Assembly: GCA_963743355.1 (NCBI GenBank)
Contig: CAVUPM010000002.1
Location: forward strand, 2,546,825 to 2,610,824
Source of the DNA: an uncultured Candidatus Rokubacteria bacterium
GTDB taxonomy: Bacteria; Methylomirabilota; Methylomirabilia; Rokubacteriales; CSP1-6
Direction: 5' to 3'
Length of the DNA stretch: 64,000 bases
Shown here piece by piece: positions 9,380 through 42,520 of this stretch. The translations under genes and the position numbers were made by a program. How positions within the stretch are numbered: position 1 is the stretch's first letter; every line of letters begins with the position of its first letter. Under the pieces are notes generated by a model. That model saw only the letters and a list, made by a program, of their open reading frames with translations, had not been told where the DNA came from and searched no databases.

Positions 9380-9394
9380 TGGCACCCGCCTTGC
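9380..9394 (+). promoter_or_regulatory. Sigma54 (RpoN) -24/-12 promoter, TGGCAC-N5-TTGC
   Basis: ctTGGCACccgccTTGCc sits 27 nt upstream of the ATG at 9421, followed by RBS GAGGAGG. Confidence 0.5.
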
Positions 9395-9420
9395 CTGAAC
9401 GACAGGCGAGGAGGTCCGTC

Positions 9421-10050
9421 ATGAAGCGCTCCCTCATCACCCTCGCTATCCTCGCGCTCACTGCCGGCACGGCGCTCGCCGCGCCCGGTGACCCGCGCAT
9501 CATCCAGGGGACCGTCGAATGGCCCCCCACCCTGTCCACCGAGCCCTTCGTCGTGATACGCGGCGACGACGGCCGTCTCTACTACGCCGACATCAGCGCC
9601 GCTCAGCGCCGCGCGCCCGGCGCGGTGACGGCCGGCTCGCCGGTCGCTGCGCTCGGGATCGAGGGCAGCCGGCCGTACGAGCTGGCGGGCCTCGCCTTCG
9701 GGCCGGGCACCGCGGCCTCGCTCGGGCTGACAACGCTCACGCCGTCCCCGGCGCCCTCGGCCTCGATGCCGTCCACGGCGCCCCAGGCGAGCTCGGCCCC
9801 GGAGCCCATGTGGCGGCTCGACGGGACTGTGCAATCCGTTTCCGGCACGATGGTGGCGTTGCAGACTGCTGACGGGCGAACCCACACCGTCGACGCCTCC
9901 CAGCTCAGCAACGGGACGATCCGCGCCCTCCGACCCGGCGATCCCGTGACGCTGTTCGGGGTGCCACGCGCCGACAACAAGCTCATCGCCAACGGCTATG
10001 TCCAGAGCGAGCCGGCCTCGCCCGCCGCCTCGCCACCTTCCACCCGCTAG
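9421..10050 (+). CDS. Secreted hypothetical protein with two similar beta-rich modules and a Ser/Pro/Ala-rich linker
   Basis: Signal peptide MKRSLITLAILALTAGTALA; internal duplication (GTVEWPP...RGDDGRLYYADIS and GTVQSVSGTMVALQTADGRTHTVDAS); strong RBS. Confidence 0.5.
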   Translation: MKRSLITLAILALTAGTALAAPGDPRIIQGTVEWPPTLSTEPFVVIRGDDGRLYYADISAAQRRAPGAVTAGSPVAALGIEGSRPYELAGLAFGPGTAASLGLTTLTPSPAPSASMPSTAPQASSAPEPMWRLDGTVQSVSGTMVALQTADGRTHTVDASQLSNGTIRALRPGDPVTLFGVPRADNKLIANGYVQSEPASPAASPPSTR

Positions 10051-34151: not shown

Positions 34152-34181
34152 GGACGAGGAGAAAGTATACCCTGCCGGTGA

Positions 34182-34877
34182 CTAGCGGTCGCGCTTGCGG
34201 AAGCGACGGGCCTCCAGGCGGAGCAGCCGCCGGTCGACCCTCGTGAACTGAGCGCGAACCTCGCTCTGGAAGCGGTCGAGCCGCTCGTTGGTCCCTCGCA
34301 CGCCTTCGGCGACCAGCTCGATCTTCATGATGAGGCCCTCGGCGACGACCCCGGCGTGCCGACGCGTCTCCGCGCCCTGCTCGTCGACGTAGTGGCGGGT
34401 CTCCACGCCCTGCTCGTCGACGTAGCGGCGCGTCTCCACGCCCTGCTCATCGATGTAGCGGCGCGTCTCCACGCCCTGCTCATCGATGTAGCGGCGCGTC
34501 TCCACGCCCTGCTCATCGATGTAGTGACGCGTCTCCACGCCCTGCTCATCGATGTAGCGGCGCGTCTCCACGCCCTGCTCATCGATGTAGTGACGCGTCT
34601 CCACGCCCTGCTCATCGATGTAGCGGCGCGTCTCCACGCCCTGCTCATCGATGTAGTGACGCGTCTCCACGCCCTGCTCATCGATGTAGCGGCGCGTCTC
34701 CACGCCCTGCTCATCGATGTAGCGGCGGGTCTCGGCGTGACTCGCGTCGACGTCGCGACGGGTCTCGGCCGCACTCTCGTCGACACGGTGCAGGATCCGC
34801 TGTTCGAGAGCGGCCAGAGTAGCGAGCAGCTCCTGACGGAAGGGATCGGGAGACGGCTCAGGTGCGGGCGTGTCCAC
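34182..34877 (-). CDS. Hypothetical protein built around about 12 tandem copies of an 11-residue repeat ETRR(Y/H)(I/V)DEQGV, flanked by short coiled-coil-like N- and C-terminal regions
   Basis: MDTPAPEPSPDPFRQELLATLAALEQRIL...[ETRRYIDEQGV]x12...LIMKIELVAEGVRGTNERLDRFQSEVRAQFTRVDRRLLRLEARRFRKRDR; GC3-rich codons on this strand, whereas the opposite-strand ORF runs antisense into yajQ. Confidence 0.55.
   Translation of the reverse strand: MDTPAPEPSPDPFRQELLATLAALEQRILHRVDESAAETRRDVDASHAETRRYIDEQGVETRRYIDEQGVETRHYIDEQGVETRRYIDEQGVETRHYIDEQGVETRRYIDEQGVETRHYIDEQGVETRRYIDEQGVETRRYIDEQGVETRRYVDEQGVETRHYVDEQGAETRRHAGVVAEGLIMKIELVAEGVRGTNERLDRFQSEVRAQFTRVDRRLLRLEARRFRKRDR
34356..34784. repeat. Tandem array of about 13 units of a 33-bp repeat (GTAGCGGCGCGTCTCCACGCCCTGCTCATCGAT), near-identical, with alternating CGGCGC/GTGACG variants
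   Basis: Eight central units are identical apart from the 66-bp alternation (CGGCGC vs GTGACG variants); outer units progressively diverge. Confidence 0.9.
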
Positions 34878-34933
34878 GACCCGCAGTGTGGTCCGGCGGC
34901 GCCGGCAGTGTCAATGTCTCCGCCCGGAGACGG

Positions 34934-35431
34934 TCAGGCGTTGCGGCGGTTCGTGAACTGCAGCGCGATCCCGAAGTCGCGCTCGCGCAACAAGGCCATG
35001 ATCCGCTGCAAGTCGTCGAGGCTCTTGCCGGATACGCGGACCTGGTCCTCCTGGATGGAGGCCTGCACCTTGATCTTCGTGTCCTTGATGAGCCGCACGA
35101 TCTCCTTGGCTTTGTCGATGGGGATCCCCTGCTGCAGCCCGATCTTCTGCCGGAGCACGCCGGCAGCACCCGTCTCCACCGTGCCATAGGTCAGGGCCTT
35201 GAGCGGCACGCCGCGCTTGTGCAGCTTGGACTGGAGAATGTCGGTCACGGCCTTGAGCTTCATGTCGTCGGCCGAGGTCAGCTTGATGTCGGTCTTCTCC
35301 AGCACGATCTCGTTCTTGGAGCCCTTGAGGTCGTAGCGGGTCTCGATCTCCCGCCGGGCCTGGTCGAGCGCGTTGGTGACCTCCTGCATGTCGATCTTGC
35401 AAACGACGTCGAAGGAGTTGTCGGCGGCCAT
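34934..35431 (-). CDS. yajQ: YajQ-family nucleotide (cyclic-di-GMP)-binding protein (UPF0234)
   Basis: MAADNSFDVVCKIDMQEVTNALDQARREIETRYDLKGS..., the characteristic 160-aa tandem ferredoxin-like YajQ sequence. Confidence 0.85.
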   Translation of the reverse strand: MAADNSFDVVCKIDMQEVTNALDQARREIETRYDLKGSKNEIVLEKTDIKLTSADDMKLKAVTDILQSKLHKRGVPLKALTYGTVETGAAGVLRQKIGLQQGIPIDKAKEIVRLIKDTKIKVQASIQEDQVRVSGKSLDDLQRIMALLRERDFGIALQFTNRRNA

Positions 35432-37590: not shown

Positions 37591-38349
37591 CTACGAACGG
37601 CGGTCGTCGGCGCTGTCGACCGGCGCCCAGCCCAGGACGGCGCGCGCGTGCTCGAGGTCGCGGTAGCTCCAGCGATTGTTGGAGACGACGAAGAACGTGT
37701 CGAAGCGCAGCGTGGCGGGCGCCTCGATACACGCGACGAGCATGCGGACCACGTCGCGCTGGCTGCACCAGACAGAGAGATCGCGCGGTCCGGTCGGCCG
37801 GTCCTCCTCCTTCACGCGGCCGATCCGCAGACAGATGACCGACATCCCGTAGGCGTCGGAGTAGTGGCGCGCGAGGGCTTCGCCCCACACCTTGCTGGCG
37901 CCGTAGAGCCCGCCCGGACGCAGCGGGGACTCGTGCGTCAGCTTCGCCCAGGCGCCGAGCTTGTCGTAGTCGCCGGCGACGACGTGCGCGAGCGGCGGCT
38001 CACGCTCCCAGCCGGCGACGGTCGCGCCGCTGCTGGCGAAGATGACGCGGGCGACGCCGGCCAGCCGCGCCGCCTCGAAGACGTGGTAGGCGCCCATCAC
38101 GTTGGATCTCAGGATATCGGCGGGCGCGTTGTTGTCGCCGGCGGCGGCGGCCAGATGCACGACGGTGTCAATGCCGGCGAACGCGGGCCGGATCGCGGCG
38201 AGATCGCCGAGGTCGGCCAGGTGACAATCTACGCCGGGGACCGCGCGCCGGTTCAGCGCGCGCAGCGTGTACGTCCCCTCGACGTGCTTGCGCAGCGCGC
38301 CGCCGATGAGACCGCTCAGCCCGGTGATCAGCAGGCGACGGGTCGCCAC
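37591..38349 (-). CDS. NAD-dependent epimerase/dehydratase family (SDR) protein
   Basis: Rossmann LITGLSGLIGGAL and catalytic YGASK motif. Confidence 0.75.
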   Translation of the reverse strand: MATRRLLITGLSGLIGGALRKHVEGTYTLRALNRRAVPGVDCHLADLGDLAAIRPAFAGIDTVVHLAAAAGDNNAPADILRSNVMGAYHVFEAARLAGVARVIFASSGATVAGWEREPPLAHVVAGDYDKLGAWAKLTHESPLRPGGLYGASKVWGEALARHYSDAYGMSVICLRIGRVKEEDRPTGPRDLSVWCSQRDVVRMLVACIEAPATLRFDTFFVVSNNRWSYRDLEHARAVLGWAPVDSADDRRS

Positions 38350-38356
38350 GGCCGGA

Positions 38357-39271
38357 CTAGCCGTCCACCTCGTGGTTGAGCCCGAAGTCGTCCGGCACCG
38401 GCGGCCCCCACCGGTAGAGCGCGTCGGCCTCCGGGAAATCGCGCGGCTCCCACGCGCACTGCTCGGGAATGTAGTCGAGGTCGTGGAAGTACTCGGCGAA
38501 GGAGCCCCACGGGTCGCGGATGTAGTAGAAGAAGTTCGAGCCGATGACGTGACGGCCCAGCCCCCAGCCCGGCTGCCAGCCGGCCTCCTGCATCCGCAGC
38601 GCCCCCATGGCGATCTCGTCCACGCTGCCGACCTCGAACGAGGCGTGGTGGAAGCCCGGGCCCCGGGAGGTCAGGAACGCCACGTTGTGATGGTCGGTCG
38701 TGCAGCGCAGGAACGCGATGATGCTCTGCGACCGGTCGGAGAGCTTCAGCCCGAGCACGCGCGTGTAGAAGTCGAGCTGGCGCTGGACCTCGGGGGTGAA
38801 GAGCAGCACGTGGCCGAGCCGGCGGGGGCTCGCGGTCAGCCCCGCGTCGGGGGCGCCGCGGTCGACCTGGCGCGCGATGTGGCCGGGGCTGTTGAGCCGC
38901 AGGGGCGGGTCGGCCGGCGGCGGCGCCGGCGCCTCGTCGCGCACCGTGAGGAGGTTGCCGTCGGGATCGCGCACCCACACGCCGCCGTCGGGGACGCCGC
39001 GCGGCGGGTCCACCTCCGGCACACCGGCGCGGCGGATCGACGCGACCGTCGCCTCGTAGTCGCCGCCGGGCGCGCCGAAGGCCAGATGGTGCAGGCGCTT
39101 CCTGGGGCCGGGGTAGAGACGGACGGACTCGCGCGTCAGCGGCGCCGGCCGCAGGTGCACGGCGCCGTCGCGCCCCGCCTCGTCGACCAGGCCGAAGCTC
39201 CGGTAGAATTTTTCGCCGACCGTCTGGTCGGGCACCTCGAGCGCGTAGTGGAGCAGCGAGCGGACCGCCAT
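38357..39271 (-). CDS. VOC-superfamily extradiol dioxygenase-like protein (two glyoxalase/bleomycin-resistance/dioxygenase modules)
   Basis: ATG at 39271 with RBS GGAGGTG; HHLAF, HVLLFTPE, HHASFEV metal-binding patterns typical of type I extradiol dioxygenases. Confidence 0.65.
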   Translation of the reverse strand: MAVRSLLHYALEVPDQTVGEKFYRSFGLVDEAGRDGAVHLRPAPLTRESVRLYPGPRKRLHHLAFGAPGGDYEATVASIRRAGVPEVDPPRGVPDGGVWVRDPDGNLLTVRDEAPAPPPADPPLRLNSPGHIARQVDRGAPDAGLTASPRRLGHVLLFTPEVQRQLDFYTRVLGLKLSDRSQSIIAFLRCTTDHHNVAFLTSRGPGFHHASFEVGSVDEIAMGALRMQEAGWQPGWGLGRHVIGSNFFYYIRDPWGSFAEYFHDLDYIPEQCAWEPRDFPEADALYRWGPPVPDDFGLNHEVDG

Positions 39272-39371
39272 GTCGGCACCTCCGGGTGACGCTGCGCGAG
39301 TGTACACCGGCCGGAGCGCCGGCGATCGCTGCGACCGTTCCGAGCGCTCGGAGCCGATGGGAGGATCCGAA

Positions 39372-39400
39372 TTGACACCCGTGAGACCGGCGCCTAGAAT
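39372..39400 (+). promoter_or_regulatory. Near-consensus sigma70 promoter TTGACA-17-TAGAAT for the liv-type transporter operon
   Basis: gaTTGACAcccgtgagaccggcgccTAGAATtcc about 60 nt upstream of the ATG at 39459 (RBS CAGGAGGA). Confidence 0.5.
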
Positions 39401-39458
39401 TCCGCCACTTGCGCGCGGAGGACATTCCTACGGAGGGACTCCTCAGGAGGACATTTCC

Positions 39459-40667
39459 ATGGATCGTCGCACATTTCTGCACTCGACCACGGCCGCTGTC
39501 GCCATCCTCGGCTTCCCCTCGATCCTGCGAGCCCAGAGCGGCCCCCTGAAGATCGGCTTCCCGCTGCCCCTCACCGGGCCCTTCGCCTCCATCGCCGCCG
39601 ACCAGAAGCGCGGGGCCGAGCTGGCCGTGGACGAGCTGAACGCCAAGGGCGGGGTGCTCGGCCGCAAGGTCGAGGTGCTCTTCCGTGACGACGAGCTCAA
39701 GCCGGCCGTGGGCGCGCAGCGCACGAAGGAGCTGATCGAGAACCAGAACGTCGACTTCGTGGTCGGCGGGCTGGCCGCCCACGTGCAGATGGCGATCAAC
39801 GAGCAGACGAAGAGAGCCGGCAAGCTCTTCATCTCGATCAGCCAGTCCGACGAGATCTCGGCCAAGCCCGACACCAGCCCGATCACCTTCCACGAGGCCC
39901 TGAACCCGACCATCACCGGCCGGGCGGTCGGGGGCTGGGGCGTGCAGAACCTCGGCAAGAAGTGGTGGATCGTCTACGCCGACTACGCGTGGGGCAAGCA
40001 GAACAACGCGGTCTTCACCGACGTCGTCCAGAAGGGCGGCGGCACGGTGCTCGGCAGCACGCCCTACCCGCTCGGCAAGCCCGAGTTCTCCGCCCACATT
40101 CCCAAGATCCAGTCGGCCAAGCCCGAGGTGCTGCTGGCCGTGACGCCCGGCGCCGACGGCGTGGCGTTCATGAAACAGGCCATCAGCTTCGGGATGAAGA
40201 AGGAGATGAAGATCCTCGTCCCGCTCCACTTCCTCTTCCTGGCCAAGGAGGGCGGGGCCGAGCTGTTCGCCGACGTCTACGGCGGCACCAACTTCTACTG
40301 GGAGCTGGCCGAGACGCTGCCCCAGGCCAAGAAGTTCGTCGACGCCTCGCTCAAGAAGTTCGGCGTGCCGCCCGACGGCTACGCCGGTTACGGCTACAAC
40401 GGCATCATGGAGGTCGCCCGCGGCGCCACGCTGGCCAAATCCACCGACGCCAACGCGGTGGCCGACGCCCTCCGCAAGAACGCCACCTACGACCACTACA
40501 AGGGCAAGCAGTTCTGGCGGGCCTGCGACAACAAGTCCTTCCAGGACCTCTACCTCGTCAAGGGGCGGGCCCAGGCCAAGGGCGAGTGGGGCTACTTCGA
40601 GGTCACCGGCAAGGTGCCGGCCGACGAGAAGCTCGAGCGCACCTGCGCCGAGAAGGGCCACGTGTAA
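39459..40667 (+). CDS. Branched-chain amino-acid-type ABC transporter substrate-binding protein (LivK/periplasmic binding protein type 1) with a twin-arginine signal
   Basis: MDRRTFLHSTTAAVAILGFPSILRA (RR Tat motif), then the Leu/Ile/Val-binding-protein fold. Confidence 0.8.
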   Translation: MDRRTFLHSTTAAVAILGFPSILRAQSGPLKIGFPLPLTGPFASIAADQKRGAELAVDELNAKGGVLGRKVEVLFRDDELKPAVGAQRTKELIENQNVDFVVGGLAAHVQMAINEQTKRAGKLFISISQSDEISAKPDTSPITFHEALNPTITGRAVGGWGVQNLGKKWWIVYADYAWGKQNNAVFTDVVQKGGGTVLGSTPYPLGKPEFSAHIPKIQSAKPEVLLAVTPGADGVAFMKQAISFGMKKEMKILVPLHFLFLAKEGGAELFADVYGGTNFYWELAETLPQAKKFVDASLKKFGVPPDGYAGYGYNGIMEVARGATLAKSTDANAVADALRKNATYDHYKGKQFWRACDNKSFQDLYLVKGRAQAKGEWGYFEVTGKVPADEKLERTCAEKGHV

Positions 40668-40670
40668 GGC

Positions 40671-41555
40671 GTGCCCGACGTCACGCTGTCCGCCCTGGCG
40701 GCCCAGCTCTTCACGGGGCTCGTCCTCGGCGGCATCCTGGTGTTGCTCGCCATCGGGCTCAGCCTGATCTTCGGGCTGATGACCGTCGTGAACTTCGCCC
40801 ACGGGTCCTTCTTCATGCTGGGCGCCTACGCGGGCTTCTTCGTGCTGGCCTACACGAAGAGCTTCTGGGTTGCGCTCGTGGTGGCCCCGCTCGTGGTCGG
40901 GGCCTTCGGCCTCGTCGTCGAGCGGTTCCTCATCCGCCCCCTCTACGGGCGCGGCCCCGACGACCCGCTGCTCCTCACCTTCGGGCTGTCGCTGGTGCTG
41001 ATCGAGGCGGTCAAGCTCCTCGTCGGCAAGATCGGCCTCACGCTCGATCCCCCGGCCGCGCTGGCCGGCGCCGCCGACCTCGGCTTCATGATGTTCCCGG
41101 CCTATCGGATCTTCGTGCTCGTGGTGACCGCGGTGGTGCTGCTCGCGCTCTGGCTCTTCCTCGAGAAGACCAACGTCGGCCTCGTGGTCCGCGCGGGCTC
41201 CCGGGACGCCCTCATGGTCCGCGCGCTCGGCATCGATCTGGGGCGGGTGTGGTTTCTCGTCTTCGGCCTCGGCATCGCCATGGCCGGGCTCGCCGGCATC
41301 CTGGCCGGACCGCTGCGCGGTGTCTACGCCGAGATGGGGATCGAGATCATCATCGAGGCCTTCGTGGTGGTCGTGGTCGGTGGCATGGGCAGCCTGCCGG
41401 GGGCGATCGTCGCCGGCCTGATGATCGGCCAGGTCATCAGCCTCACGACCTTCTTCGCGCCCAAGCTCGCCGAGATCGTCGTCTTCGTCGTGATGGCGGT
41501 CGTCCTCCTGACCCGACCCAGCGGGTTGCTCGGCGAAGCGGGTCTCGCGGAATGA
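40671..41555 (+). CDS. livH: Branched-chain amino-acid ABC transporter permease LivH
   Basis: Multi-TM LivH-family sequence, GTG start. Confidence 0.85.
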   Translation: MPDVTLSALAAQLFTGLVLGGILVLLAIGLSLIFGLMTVVNFAHGSFFMLGAYAGFFVLAYTKSFWVALVVAPLVVGAFGLVVERFLIRPLYGRGPDDPLLLTFGLSLVLIEAVKLLVGKIGLTLDPPAALAGAADLGFMMFPAYRIFVLVVTAVVLLALWLFLEKTNVGLVVRAGSRDALMVRALGIDLGRVWFLVFGLGIAMAGLAGILAGPLRGVYAEMGIEIIIEAFVVVVVGGMGSLPGAIVAGLMIGQVISLTTFFAPKLAEIVVFVVMAVVLLTRPSGLLGEAGLAE

Positions 41556-42520
41556 CGCGCGGTCCGCTCGCGCCGGTCGCTGCGTGGATCGCCGCCCACC
41601 CGGTCGTCTCCATCGTGGCCTTCTTCGCCGTGCTGCCGTTCGTGGTGCCGTACACGTCGCTGGCCACCCAGATCCTCGTCTACGGTCTCTTCGCGCTCGG
41701 ATTCAACCTGCTCTACGGCTACACCGGCCTGCTGTCGTTCGGTCACGCCGCCTACTGGGGTCTCGGCGCCTACGGTGCCGGGATCATGCTGGCCAAGCTC
41801 GGGTGGACCTCGCTGTGGGGCGCGCTCGCCGTCGGCGTGCTCACCGCCGGCCTGGGGGGCGCCTTCGTCGGGTTCTTCGCGCTGCGGCGGCGCGGCATCT
41901 ACTTCGCGATGCTGACACTGGCCTTCGCCCAGCTCTTCTACTTCGTCGCGTTCCACCTCGCCGATCTCACCGGCGGCGACGACGGCCTGCGTGGCATCCC
42001 CCAGCTGCCGCTGGGGTTCTTCTGGTGGTCGATCCCCCTCAAGACCCCGCTGGCCTTCCACTACTTCGCGCTGGCCTGGGCGGCGCTGGCGGTGGCCGGA
42101 CTGCAGCGCGTGCTGAAGTCCCCGTTCGGGGCGGTGCTCGCCGCCATCCGGGAAAACGGGGACCGAGCCTCCGCGTGCGGCTACGACGTCAACCGGGCGA
42201 GGCTGCTGTCGTTCGTGTTCTCGGCGTCCATCACCGGGCTGGCCGGGTCGCTCGACGCGCTCCGGCTCAACGTCGTGCCGGTCGAAGCGCTGTTCTGGTC
42301 GACGTCGGGCCAGGTGGTGATCATGACCCTGCTCGGCGGGGCCGGGACGTTCTTCGGGCCGTTCGTGGGCGCGGCAACCTTCCTCGTACTCGCCGACCGG
42401 CTGAGCCTGGTGATGGCCGACTCGTGGCCCATCGTGATCGGAAGCGTGTTCATGGCGTTCGTGCTCTTCCTTCCCAAGGGCATCTGGGGCACGTTGATCG
42501 GAGGGTTCCATGGCCGTTAA
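41552..42520 (+). CDS. livM: Branched-chain amino-acid ABC transporter permease LivM
   Basis: ATGA overlap with livH; LivM-family multi-TM sequence. Confidence 0.85.
   Translation: MTRGPLAPVAAWIAAHPVVSIVAFFAVLPFVVPYTSLATQILVYGLFALGFNLLYGYTGLLSFGHAAYWGLGAYGAGIMLAKLGWTSLWGALAVGVLTAGLGGAFVGFFALRRRGIYFAMLTLAFAQLFYFVAFHLADLTGGDDGLRGIPQLPLGFFWWSIPLKTPLAFHYFALAWAALAVAGLQRVLKSPFGAVLAAIRENGDRASACGYDVNRARLLSFVFSASITGLAGSLDALRLNVVPVEALFWSTSGQVVIMTLLGGAGTFFGPFVGAATFLVLADRLSLVMADSWPIVIGSVFMAFVLFLPKGIWGTLIGGFHGR

What the first reader, a model, noticed from the sequence alone, without database searches (positions are those of the whole stretch)
34182..34877. Gene built from about 12 near-identical 33-bp tandem repeats encoding an 11-residue repeat ETRRYIDEQGV
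Between yajQ and rimO, a 231-aa ORF holds a 430-bp array of 33-bp units (GTAGCGGCGCGTCTCCACGCCCTGCTCATCGAT). Eight central units are identical apart from the 66-bp alternation (CGGCGC versus GTGACG variants) and the outer units degenerate. The near-identity indicates recent expansion or concerted evolution, and the array is a likely hotspot for length variation. Eleven-residue periodicity is typical of amphipathic 11/3 helices (apolipoprotein, LEA and perilipin classes), a right-handed coiled coil or a solenoid. The flanking regions (FRQELLATLAALEQRIL; LDRFQSEVRAQFTRVDRRLLRLEARR) look coiled-coil-like. I recognise no family.
Basis: seen in the sequence. Interest (0 to 1): 0.7.

Follow-up and report, generated by a model that had tools for sequence, protein, structure and literature searches.

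The report
Repeat-expanded helical rod protein gene
A real gene in an uncultured soil bacterium (Rokubacteria-type) encodes one long alpha-helix whose length was recently more than doubled by 12 tandem copies of an 11-residue unit; it belongs to a large, unnamed family of small helical proteins that change length this way, and its cellular role is unknown.

Summary
ORF 34182..34877 (minus strand, 231 aa) lies between yajQ and rimO and holds 12 in-frame 33-bp units (ETRRYIDEQGV). Eight central units are identical apart from an RR/RH alternation with a 66-bp period.

The gene belongs to an unnamed family with about 2,000 clusters at 50% identity, from Rokubacteria/Methylomirabilota and Acidobacteriota. 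No Pfam or NCBIfam model covers it. Members are typically about 110 aa. They have a conserved 60-aa C-terminal core (AETRRHF-VVAE-LVAEGV-RF-VDRRLLRLE) preceded by a helical extension.

That extension evolves by in-frame tandem duplication. Syntenic orthologues are 109 to 175 aa, each with its own amplified unit. Near-identical strains of other members differ by whole units. The window's array is the most extreme among 117 genes compared.

AlphaFold2 predicts one continuous helix. The amplified unit is the hendecad next to the core, so the helical phase is kept.

Apolipoprotein, LEA, curli, phage and defence memberships all fail. Genomic context gives no functional clue. The best reading is an oligomerising coiled-coil or helical rod with a length-variable, acidic N-terminal arm. 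Its physiological role is unknown, and the copy number could not be checked against reads.

The parts
34182..34877 (-). Complete coding sequence of the repeat protein (231 aa, GTG start, TAG stop)
   Evidence: ORF list. GC3 of 0.86 matches neighbouring genes. Orthologues start with the same V/M-D-T/A-P N-terminus. 52 homologues were found by sequence and about 2,000 clusters by profile.
34767..34877 (-). N-terminal non-repeat region (aa 1-37: proline-rich tip, then helix FRQELLATLAALEQRILHRVDESAA)
   Evidence: Conserved among syntenic orthologues P0003, P0056 and P0001. Helical from residue 12 in the AlphaFold2 model.
34371..34766 (-). Array of 12 in-frame 33-bp units (aa 38-169; ETRRDVDASHA, then 11 units of the ETRR/HY-I/V-DEQG-V/A type)
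   Evidence: Tandem Repeats Finder, unit-by-unit parse, pattern search.
34437..34700 (-). Eight central units, identical except CGCCGC/CGTCAC (RR/RH). Units 2-8 alternate with a 66-bp period and are the most recently amplified block.
   Evidence: Adjacent-unit nucleotide identity is 0.94-1.00.
34185..34370 (-). Conserved C-terminal core of the family (aa 170-231: ETRRHAGVVAEGLIMKIELVAEGVRGTNERLDRFQSEVRAQFTRVDRRLLRLEARRFRKRDR). It has a hydrophobic seam with 3-4-4/3-4 spacing, net charge +7 and pI 11.6.
   Evidence: Alignment A1. Profile search: 2,005 clusters at E<=1e-3. HMM hit in the window only here, at 97.6 bits. Charge and moment analysis.
34185..34208 (-). Arg/Lys-rich C-terminal tail (RRFRKRDR), shared by the syntenic orthologue group but not by the wider family
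   Evidence: Sequences.
34878..34933 (-). yajQ-to-X intergenic spacer with a conserved TTGACA (34909..34914) followed by a GC-rich palindrome. There is no Shine-Dalgarno-like motif. This is a tentative own promoter.
   Evidence: Alignment of the spacer from the window, L001, L043 and L046. The consensus promoter scan found nothing, so this is inference only.

Best explanation
The gene encodes a small, soluble, cytoplasmic, all-alpha-helical protein of an undescribed family found in Rokubacteria/Methylomirabilota and Acidobacteriota. The family has two parts. The first is a conserved C-terminal core of about 60 residues (AETRRHF-VVAE-x7-LVAEGV-x8-RF-x2-EV-x6-VDRRLLRLE). Its continuous hydrophobic seam most likely drives self-association into a coiled coil or helical bundle (inferred). 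The second is an N-terminal helical arm that evolves by in-frame tandem duplication and deletion, presumably through replication slippage or unequal recombination (shown at family level; the molecular mechanism is inferred). In this genome the 11-residue unit that abuts the core has been amplified to 12 copies, the last rounds as 66-bp double units. This adds about 130 residues, or roughly 20 nm of helix, and gives a helix of about 220 residues against about 94 in the minimal orthologue. Eleven residues equal three helical turns, so each added unit keeps seam positions 2/6/10 (Thr-Ile-Gly, flanked by Tyr5 and Gln9) in phase with the core seam. The polar face carries an E1-R4-D7/E8 and R3-D7 salt-bridge ladder. 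The result is a strongly acidic polyampholyte rod (net -16) attached to a basic core and tail (net +7). The arm probably acts as a length-variable spacer or interaction arm, or is simply a tolerated extension. The physiological role is not known.
For: The array and frame are shown. The family is shown by 52 sequence homologues, 2,005 clusters at 50% identity with E<=1e-3 and 261 with E<=1e-10, and 540 clusters at 90% identity with E<=1e-5. The top 120 of these are 71-116 aa, have no source-given name other than 'hypothetical protein' or a scattered mis-annotation, and 119 of them have no Pfam domain. Taxonomy comes from 37 genome loci, all metagenome-assembled genomes of Rokubacteria, Methylomirabilota or Acidobacteriota. 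AlphaFold2 gives mean pLDDT 88 with helices 12-90 and 93-230 for the window protein. For the 109-aa orthologue P0056 it gives one helix, residues 9-102, at pLDDT 95. Hydrophobicity peaks at 98 degrees in both the array and the core. Six orthologues sit in the same aat-lolA-yajQ-X-rimO slot, with RimO 93-94% identical, yet are 109-231 aa long, and each carries a different recently duplicated unit. Of 117 non-redundant family genes, 80 carry tandem repeats, and 76 of those 80 have periods that are multiples of 3. The window array scores highest, 644 against 401 for the next. Near-identical strains differ by whole in-frame units: L089/L091 by 12 bp, L074/L110 by 36 bp, L010/L101 by 90 bp. No transmembrane segment or signal-like stretch was found. 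The properties of hendecads (periodicity 3.67 against 3.63 for an alpha-helix, small core residues, rods that grow by adding hendecads) are taken from PMC9858780.
Against: Oligomerisation was not tested; only monomer models were possible. The array seam (Thr/Ile/Gly) is weak, with hydrophobic moment 0.26 and mean hydrophobicity -0.42, and each unit contains a Gly. The arm alone may therefore be a single helix, or only marginally stable, rather than a coiled coil. Phase preservation is not a family rule: 33 of the 80 arrays have 12-, 24- or 36-bp periods, which encode 4-, 8- and 12-residue units. No expression data exist. No near-identical strain of this genome was found: the exact-unit scan of metagenomes gave 0 hits and the source is not in the lookup collection. 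The copy number of 12 therefore rests on one assembly. Genomic context gives no functional hint.
Confidence: 0.7

Rival explanations
1. The protein is a bacterial LEA-like or hydrophilin stress protectant. In this reading the polyampholyte 11-mer array is disordered when hydrated and becomes helical on drying or freezing, shielding membranes and proteins in a soil bacterium.
For: It has an 11-residue tandem unit with mixed charges (2 Arg, 3 acidic), as group 3 LEA motifs do (3 Lys, 3 acidic; PMC6975979). The window protein has GRAVY -1.15 and 6.5% Gly. This meets the hydrophilin criteria as I recall them (Gly above 6%, hydrophilicity index above 1; own knowledge). The family lives in soil and groundwater lineages.
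Against: There is no hit to any LEA model in Pfam. None of 317 family members meets the hydrophilin criteria, so the property is a by-product of this one amplified unit. AlphaFold2 predicts a confident helix and the core has a normal hydrophobic seam. The apolar positions of the LEA motif (1, 2, 5, 9) do not match this unit. Orthologues amplify quite different units.
Confidence: 0.1
2. The protein is an apolipoprotein- or perilipin-like lipid-surface binder. In this reading the 11/22-residue amphipathic helices coat membranes or storage granules.
For: 34 of 72 family members give weak PF01442 hits. The full-length family profile matches apolipoprotein A-IV (3s84, E=3e-12) and A-I (E about 3e-3) through the 11/22-mer region.
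Against: Pfam scores are 26-45 bits against a cut-off of 90. The individual aligned stretches have E-values of 0.001-0.4, so the total is a sum over a periodic pattern. The window protein itself has no such hit. The array has a low hydrophobic moment (0.26) and is very hydrophilic. There are no proline punctuations, no signal peptide and no lipid-related neighbours.
Confidence: 0.07
3. The expansion is neutral or slightly harmful slippage in a dispensable arm, or its copy number is an assembly artefact. In this reading the 12 copies have no functional meaning.
For: The near-identical units imply a very recent event. The window array is an outlier in the family. The identical block of 264 bp or more exceeds the usual short-read length (own knowledge), and reads could not be inspected. 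No second assembly carries this unit. Arms in the family tolerate almost any unit sequence or period.
Against: The array is in frame, with an intact ORF and normal codon bias. 76 of 80 family arrays are in frame. The ETRR motif is kept in the diverged units of orthologues. This rival is compatible with the structural part of the best explanation and disputes only adaptive value and exact copy number.
Confidence: 0.12
4. The array belongs to something other than this gene: an opposite-strand or other-frame ORF, a structured RNA, or a dispersed or mobile repeat.
For: ORFs of 277 aa (plus strand, 34356..35189) and 153 aa (minus strand, other frame) also span the array.
Against: The plus-strand ORF runs antisense through yajQ. 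The other minus-strand frame has GC2 0.88 and GC3 0.75, which is non-coding-like. Only the 231-aa frame continues into a domain conserved in about 2,000 clusters. There is no Rfam match. The unit occurs nowhere else in the window. The family is absent from viral contigs.
Confidence: 0.01

Closest known systems
Hendecad-based coiled-coil rod proteins such as FilP and Scy of Actinobacteria
   Same: Both are long alpha-helical rods with 11-residue periodicity and small core residues. In both, the rod was lengthened during evolution by adding hendecads (PMC9858780).
   Different: There is no sequence relationship and no DivIVA-like N-terminal motif. This protein is far smaller (109-231 aa against several hundred to more than 1,000). 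Its repeats are near-identical at the DNA level and polymorphic between strains. It has a different conserved core at the C-terminus. Filament formation was not tested.
Exchangeable apolipoproteins A-I/A-IV/E (Pfam PF01442)
   Same: Both have tandem 11/22-residue helical repeats that arose by intragenic duplication. The family profile gives a pattern-level match to apoA-IV, E=3e-12.
   Different: The family falls below the Pfam threshold. It has no Pro-punctuated 22-mers and no secretion signal. The window array has a low hydrophobic moment. These are bacterial cytoplasmic proteins.
Group 3 LEA proteins (11-mer polyampholyte repeats)
   Same: Both have 11-residue tandem units with mixed acidic and basic residues and a Gly, and both have helical propensity (PMC6975979).
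   Different: There is no LEA Pfam match. The positions of apolar residues differ. This family uses Arg instead of Lys. It has a conserved hydrophobic-seam core that LEA proteins lack. Family members are not hydrophilins.
Charged single alpha-helix (ER/K) spacer domains
   Same: The repeat has i to i+3 and i to i+4 opposite-charge pairs (E1-R4, R3-D7, R4-E8; read from the sequence) and a weak hydrophobic seam. It would make a rigid spacer of tunable length.
   Different: Only about 45% of array residues are charged, against about 75% or more in classical ER/K helices (own knowledge). Each unit contains Tyr, Ile, Val and Gly. This was not tested.

Membership tests
Undescribed 'ETRRHF-LVAEGV' small helical protein family (defined here) | C-terminal core of about 60 aa with near-invariant E3, T4, R5, R6, E13, E24, G25, R35, D48, R50 (alignment A1 numbering) | tested here: met
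   The window protein is the first row of alignment A1. The HMM built from homologues scores 97.6 bits on it. The profile retrieves 2,005 clusters.
Undescribed 'ETRRHF-LVAEGV' small helical protein family (defined here) | Small stand-alone protein, all-helical, with no transmembrane segment, no signal peptide and no additional domain | tested here: met
   Family median length is 114 aa and maximum 236 aa. Two of the 317 family proteins (P0026, P0083) have a 19-residue hydropathy window above 1.6; the window protein's maximum is 1.32. AlphaFold2 gives helices only. 119 of the top 120 hits have no Pfam domain.
Undescribed 'ETRRHF-LVAEGV' small helical protein family (defined here) | N-terminal arm built from in-frame tandem repeats that vary between orthologues and strains | tested here: met
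   Strain-level variation is shown for other members, not for the window array itself.
Apolipoprotein A1/A4/E (PF01442) | Score at or above the Pfam gathering threshold of 90 bits | tested here: not met
   The window protein has no hit. Homologues score 26-45 bits.
Apolipoprotein A1/A4/E (PF01442) | Strongly amphipathic lipid-binding helices, as 22-mers punctuated by Pro | tested here: not met
   The array has hydrophobic moment 0.26 and mean hydrophobicity -0.42. It contains no Pro.
Group 3 LEA (LEA_4) / hydrophilins | Match to an LEA profile | tested here: not met
   No LEA family appears among the Pfam hits for the window protein or among the 25 most frequently matched families listed for 72 members.
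Group 3 LEA (LEA_4) / hydrophilins | High hydrophilicity and Gly above 6% (criteria from memory) | tested here: inconclusive
   The window protein meets them (GRAVY -1.15, Gly 6.5%), but 0 of 317 relatives do.
Group 3 LEA (LEA_4) / hydrophilins | Disordered in solution, helical on drying | not testable with these tools
   This needs circular dichroism or FTIR of the protein. The high AlphaFold2 confidence argues for a stable helix but is not a measurement.
Hendecad coiled coil (structural class) | 11-residue sequence periodicity in a predicted alpha-helix | tested here: met
   (moment peak at 98 degrees).
Hendecad coiled coil (structural class) | Apolar residues at core positions and assembly into a bundle of two or more helices | tested here: inconclusive
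   The core region has a clear seam: F8, V11, L15, I19, V22, V26, L29, L33, F36, V40, F44, V47, L51, L54 (alignment A1). The array seam is only Thr/Tyr/Ile/Gln-Gly. Oligomer state could not be modelled.
Curli subunit CsgB (NCBIfam NF007506) | Score at or above the curated cut-off of 165 bits | tested here: not met
   33 bits, produced by the periodic pattern. The model is helical, not beta.
Phage or anti-phage defence protein families (PHROGs, PADLOC) | A specific family match, or presence on viral contigs | tested here: not met
   Only scattered weak coiled-coil-type hits, for example to ZorA, JetC and LmuB models. No relatives on viral contigs.

The most novel reading that the evidence does not exclude
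The N-terminal arms of this family may act as contingency-like, rapidly mutating length regulators. In-frame gain and loss of helical units would tune the reach or charge of a self-assembling rod, for example a cytoplasmic spacer or ruler, a scaffold, or a polyampholyte protectant. Soil Rokubacteria and Acidobacteria would then hold standing, heritable, reversible variation in a structural protein. The window gene would be the most extreme allele seen so far. This would be a cytoplasmic, non-pathogen counterpart of the repeat-driven variation known from surface proteins of pathogens.
Probability: 0.15. Interest if true: 0.7.

Novelty: new variant of a known kind. Interest (0 to 1): 0.45.

Why it matters
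Rokubacteria and many Acidobacteria are abundant in soil, but Rokubacteria have no cultured representative and most of these lineages are known only from metagenomes. This analysis defines a large family that no curated library covers and that is easy to recognise by its core motif. It also shows that the family is a natural system of in-frame helical repeat gain and loss, with differences even between near-identical strains. If rod length matters for function, these genes would be a simple model for how repeat instability tunes a structural protein in free-living bacteria. If it does not, they show how tolerant a long helix is to insertions and how quickly slippage reshapes proteins in genomes with 72% G+C. 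In practical terms, arrays of this kind are places where short-read metagenome assemblies are likely to break or to misjudge copy number.

Tried and rejected
- **Curated libraries.** Pfam, NCBIfam and PDB sequence searches of the protein gave only sub-threshold coiled-coil or periodic noise: CFAP58, SUN2, and CsgB at 33 bits against a cut-off of 165.
- **Core profile against the PDB.** Nothing better than E=0.15, a chance resemblance to influenza HA2 heptads.
- **Structure search.** Foldseek of the model against the PDB gave no match. A lone helix is uninformative, so no further fold searches were run.
- **Phage and defence libraries.** PHROGs and PADLOC gave generic coiled-coil hits only. The viral contig scan found no relatives.
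- **Neighbour analysis.** Clustering neighbours across the 41 loci held at that point and inspecting the flanking ORFs of 20 diverse loci showed no recurrent partner outside synteny among close relatives. Guilt by association therefore gives nothing.
- **Source of the window.** Neither the repeat protein nor YajQ is on record as an exact product.
- **Other assemblies.** A degenerate DNA pattern for the exact amplified unit found 0 metagenome contigs, so copy-number polymorphism of this particular array could not be tested.
- **First genome scan.** The broad alignment A1 was too diverse to search with. It was repeated with the narrower A2.
- **Other frames and RNA.** Alternative ORFs on the plus strand and in another minus-strand frame were rejected on codon-position GC and lack of conservation. 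There is no Rfam family, tRNA or consensus promoter/terminator at the locus.
- **Paralogues.** No second family member exists in the window.
- **Beta-solenoid or beta-hairpin reading of the 11-mer.** Rejected, because both AlphaFold2 models are entirely helical at high confidence.
- **The hairpin in the window model.** The fold-back at residues 90-93 is treated as an artefact of monomer modelling. pLDDT is below 50 there, and the site is one of many equivalent Gln-Gly positions.
Full report
**1. The observation**

ORF 34182..34877 on the minus strand has a GTG start and encodes 231 aa. It contains a 33-bp tandem array, which Tandem Repeats Finder places at 34363..34733 with 11.2 copies, 94% matches, no indels and score 644.

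Read in frame, there are 12 units at 34371..34766. The first is ETRRDVDASHA. It is followed by eleven units of the type ETR(R/H)Y(I/V)DEQG(V/A). A 13th unit, ETRRHAGVVAE, runs on into the C-terminal region.

Units 2-9 are identical apart from CGCCGC (Arg-Arg) versus CGTCAC (Arg-His). These two forms alternate with a 66-bp period through units 2-8. The 33-mer occurs 10 times at up to 3 mismatches, all inside the array, with none expected by chance. No other large tandem repeat exists in the 64 kb window.

The flanking genes are YajQ/DUF520 upstream and a RimO-type radical-SAM methylthiotransferase downstream. LolA, Leu/Phe-tRNA-protein transferase and CinA lie further out, all on the same strand.

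**2. Which strand and frame**

The 231-aa frame has GC1/GC2/GC3 of 0.77/0.40/0.86, like its neighbours, which have GC3 of 0.93-0.96. The other minus-strand frame shows a non-coding pattern of 0.38/0.88/0.75. The plus-strand ORF runs antisense into yajQ.

Only the 231-aa frame continues into a domain that is conserved in thousands of proteins. No Rfam family or tRNA maps here.

**3. The gene belongs to a large, undescribed family**

A sequence search found 52 homologues of 128-191 aa. All share a C-terminal core with the consensus AAETRRHFGVVAExLxSKIxLVAEGVxxLxExxxRFxxEVxxxFxRVDRRLLRLEAR. Upstream of the core lie variable short repeats.

A profile of the core retrieved 2,005 clusters at 50% identity with E<=1e-3, and 261 with E<=1e-10. 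All of the best 150 are 54-236 aa long. A second search of the 5.8-billion-protein set gave 540 hits at E<=1e-5. The top 120 are 71-116 aa. One carries a precomputed Pfam domain (PF01442). None has a source-given name other than 'hypothetical protein' or a scattered mis-annotation.

Across the 317 family proteins collected, the median length is 114 aa. At 231 aa the window protein is at the extreme.

Genome hits are all metagenome-assembled genomes of Rokubacteria/Methylomirabilota, or of Acidobacteriota (Thermoanaerobaculia, Vicinamibacterales). A metagenome scan found more than 365 relatives. The family is absent from viral contigs.

Curated libraries do not cover it:
- Pfam and NCBIfam give only sub-threshold hits.
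- PHROGs and PADLOC give generic coiled-coil noise.
- The PDB holds no sequence relative of the core.

**4. Structure**

AlphaFold2 models the window protein as helix 12-90 and helix 93-230, with mean pLDDT 88. The single break is at Gln90-Gly91-Val92 inside the array and has low confidence. The 109-aa syntenic orthologue P0056 is modelled as one uninterrupted helix, residues 9-102, with pLDDT 95.

I take these models as evidence of helicity only. The fold-back in the long protein is what a monomer model does with a long helix, and it sits at one of many equivalent Gln-Gly sites. A Foldseek search was uninformative, as expected for a lone helix.

The core has a continuous hydrophobic seam at F8, V11, L15, I19, V22, V26, L29, L33, F36, V40, F44, V47, L51 and L54 of alignment A1. 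The spacing is 3-4-4/3-4/3-4/3-4-4/3-4, that is, heptads with hendecad stutters (read). This is the signature of a self-associating coiled coil.

Hydrophobicity in both the core and the array peaks at 98 degrees, the 11/3 periodicity. Hendecads have a periodicity of 3.67 against 3.63 for an undistorted alpha-helix. They therefore give almost straight bundles with small core residues (PMC9858780).

In the array the in-phase seam is Thr2-Ile6-Gly10, flanked by Tyr5 and Gln9. It is weak, with hydrophobic moment 0.26 and mean hydrophobicity -0.42. The opposite face carries E1-R4, R3-D7 and R4-E8 pairs at i+3 and i+4 spacing (read from the sequence).

The array is very hydrophilic and acidic (GRAVY -1.5, net charge -16, pI 4.7). 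The core plus tail is basic (net +7, pI 11.6). No transmembrane or signal-like segment is present.

**5. How the array arose, and whether its length varies**

Six orthologues occupy the same aat-lolA-yajQ-X-rimO(-pgpA-cinA) slot. Their RimO proteins are 93-94% identical to the window's:

| Orthologue | Length | Loci |
|---|---|---|
| P0056 | 109 aa | L043, L044, L046 |
| P0003 | 142 aa | no DNA retrieved |
| P0002 | 165 aa | L042 |
| P0004 | 170 aa | L045 |
| P0001 | 175 aa | L001 |
| window | 231 aa | this window |

Each has amplified a different unit. P0001 has a 66-bp double unit with copies up to 97% identical. P0002 has a 33-bp unit at 91%. P0004 has a 45-bp unit at 91%. The window has 33/66-bp units at 94-100%. 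P0056 has only one unit, QTRRDVDEQNA, ahead of the core. The window's amplified unit ETRRYIDEQGV looks like a derivative of that unit. The array therefore grew out of the hendecad that abuts the core.

Across 117 non-redundant family genes, 80 carry DNA-level tandem repeats. In 76 of those 80 the period is a multiple of three: 12, 24, 45, 66, 33, 36, 42 and 21 bp, among others. The window array has by far the highest score, 644 against 401 for the next.

Contigs from different samples whose cores are 99-100% identical differ by whole in-frame units:

| Pair | Difference |
|---|---|
| L089 vs L091 | one 12-bp unit |
| L074 vs L110 | 36 bp (three 4-aa units) |
| L010 vs L101 | 90 bp (two 15-aa units) |

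Family arrays are therefore copy-number polymorphic on very short evolutionary time scales. For the window's own array this remains an inference, because no near-identical genome was found. The identical block of at least 264 bp is longer than typical short reads (own knowledge). The figure of 12 copies should be treated as unverified until reads are checked.

**6. Context**

More distant Rokubacteria, with RimO 66-85% identical, hold other sequences between yajQ and rimO. In 40 or so of the loci retrieved, however, they carry a family member (the VDQELVAYLDRRF... subfamily) transcribed divergently just upstream of lolA.

The gene is thus a long-standing resident of this housekeeping neighbourhood, but its position has shifted. 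Elsewhere, family members sit in unrelated contexts with no recurrent partner. There is no second copy in the window.

The yajQ-X spacer contains a TTGACA and a GC palindrome that are conserved among the orthologues. It has no Shine-Dalgarno motif. This suggests a separate promoter, but the evidence is weak.

**7. Most likely mechanism**

- **Shown:** a real minus-strand gene; membership of the undescribed family; a confident all-helical prediction with 11/3 periodicity; recent lineage-specific amplification of the unit next to the core; family-wide, in-frame, strain-level gain and loss of repeats.
- **Inferred:** the conserved core drives assembly into a coiled coil or bundle; the arm is a length-variable helical extension; slippage or unequal recombination generates the variation; the 11-residue unit is tolerated because it preserves helical phase.
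- **Unknown:** the cellular role.

The phase argument is not general. Many relatives carry 4-, 8- or 12-residue units. This is compatible with the arm being a tolerant and perhaps largely neutral appendage.

**8. Comparison with known kinds**

The closest functional analogies are hendecad rods that grew by adding hendecads, such as FilP and Scy, exchangeable apolipoproteins, and group 3 LEA proteins.

Apolipoprotein resemblance is real at the level of pattern. 34 of 72 members give weak PF01442 hits, and the full-length family profile matches apoA-IV at E=3e-12. Membership nevertheless fails for these reasons:
- Scores are 26-45 bits against a cut-off of 90.
- The individual aligned stretches have E-values of 0.001-0.4.
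- The window protein itself has no hit.
- The array is not strongly amphipathic.
- The array contains no Pro punctuation.

LEA membership fails on profiles. The hydrophilin-like composition is peculiar to this one allele, since 0 of 317 relatives share it. The CsgB hit, at 33 bits against a cut-off of 165, is an artefact of the periodic pattern.

**9. Verdict**

It is a striking recent hendecad expansion in a member of a large uncharacterised family of small helical proteins from uncultured soil bacteria, a family in which repeat gain and loss is pervasive. It is a new variant of a known kind of thing, a tandem-repeat helical rod, rather than a new kind. Its function is unknown. Interest is moderate.

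Noticed in passing
window 34878..34933 (TTGACA at 34909..34914, minus strand): The yajQ-X spacer keeps a consensus -35-like TTGACA followed by a GC-rich palindrome (GCCGGCGCCGCCGG) in the window and in orthologous loci L001, L043 and L046. There is no Shine-Dalgarno motif before the GTG/ATG start about 30 nt downstream. It may be an own promoter with a very short or absent leader. The GTCTCCG...CGGAGAC hairpin just after the yajQ stop is present only in the window and L001.
   Followed up: partly
window 34164..34171 (minus strand), in the 30-bp X-rimO spacer: A GGTATACT motif (TATACT is -10-like) is conserved in the window, L001 and L043, about 12 nt upstream of the rimO ATG. It may be a promoter element for rimO lying at the end of the repeat gene.
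   Followed up: partly
L005-L011, L020, L048-L120 (about 40 loci), e.g. L008 4225..4590: In most other Rokubacteria a family member (the VDQELVAYLDRRF... subfamily) sits divergently upstream of lolA-yajQ-rimO instead of between yajQ and rimO. In those genomes the yajQ-rimO gap holds other sequence: a HIT-like ORF in L011, about 2.6 kb of extra genes in L006, and about 1 kb in L020.
   Followed up: partly
L089 vs L091; L074 vs L110; L010 vs L101: Contigs from different samples have 99-100% identical core and flanks but differ by whole in-frame repeat units (12 bp, 36 bp and 90 bp). This is direct strain-level copy-number polymorphism in relatives of the window gene.
   Followed up: yes
P0053, P0093, P0160, P0180, P0187 (family members): In some relatives the core motif itself (ETRRHFDVVAE...LVAEG) is tandemly duplicated two to four times, rather than a short arm unit.
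   Followed up: no
L039 5746..6135 and 9391..9714: Two family genes lie 3.3 kb apart in one Vicinamibacterales contig. Both have DLKTxMDGRF 11-residue repeats, so the family can be multi-copy within a genome. The Candidatus Acidoferrum genome assembly DATHGT01 (L010, L017) also has two copies.
   Followed up: no
window 38328..40802 (minus strand): This 824-aa ORF gave no Pfam hit at E<=1e-5 and overlaps long plus-strand ORFs (39270..40667, 39962..42520). It is probably a spurious high-GC ORF rather than a gene.
   Followed up: no
family core, alignment A1 positions 24-58: The core shows a weak resemblance (E=0.15) to the influenza haemagglutinin HA2 coiled-coil segment (EGV..L.ERLDRF..EV...F.RVDRRL against EAIDKITNKVNNIVDKMNREFEVVNHEF). 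This is almost certainly convergent heptad pattern.
   Followed up: no
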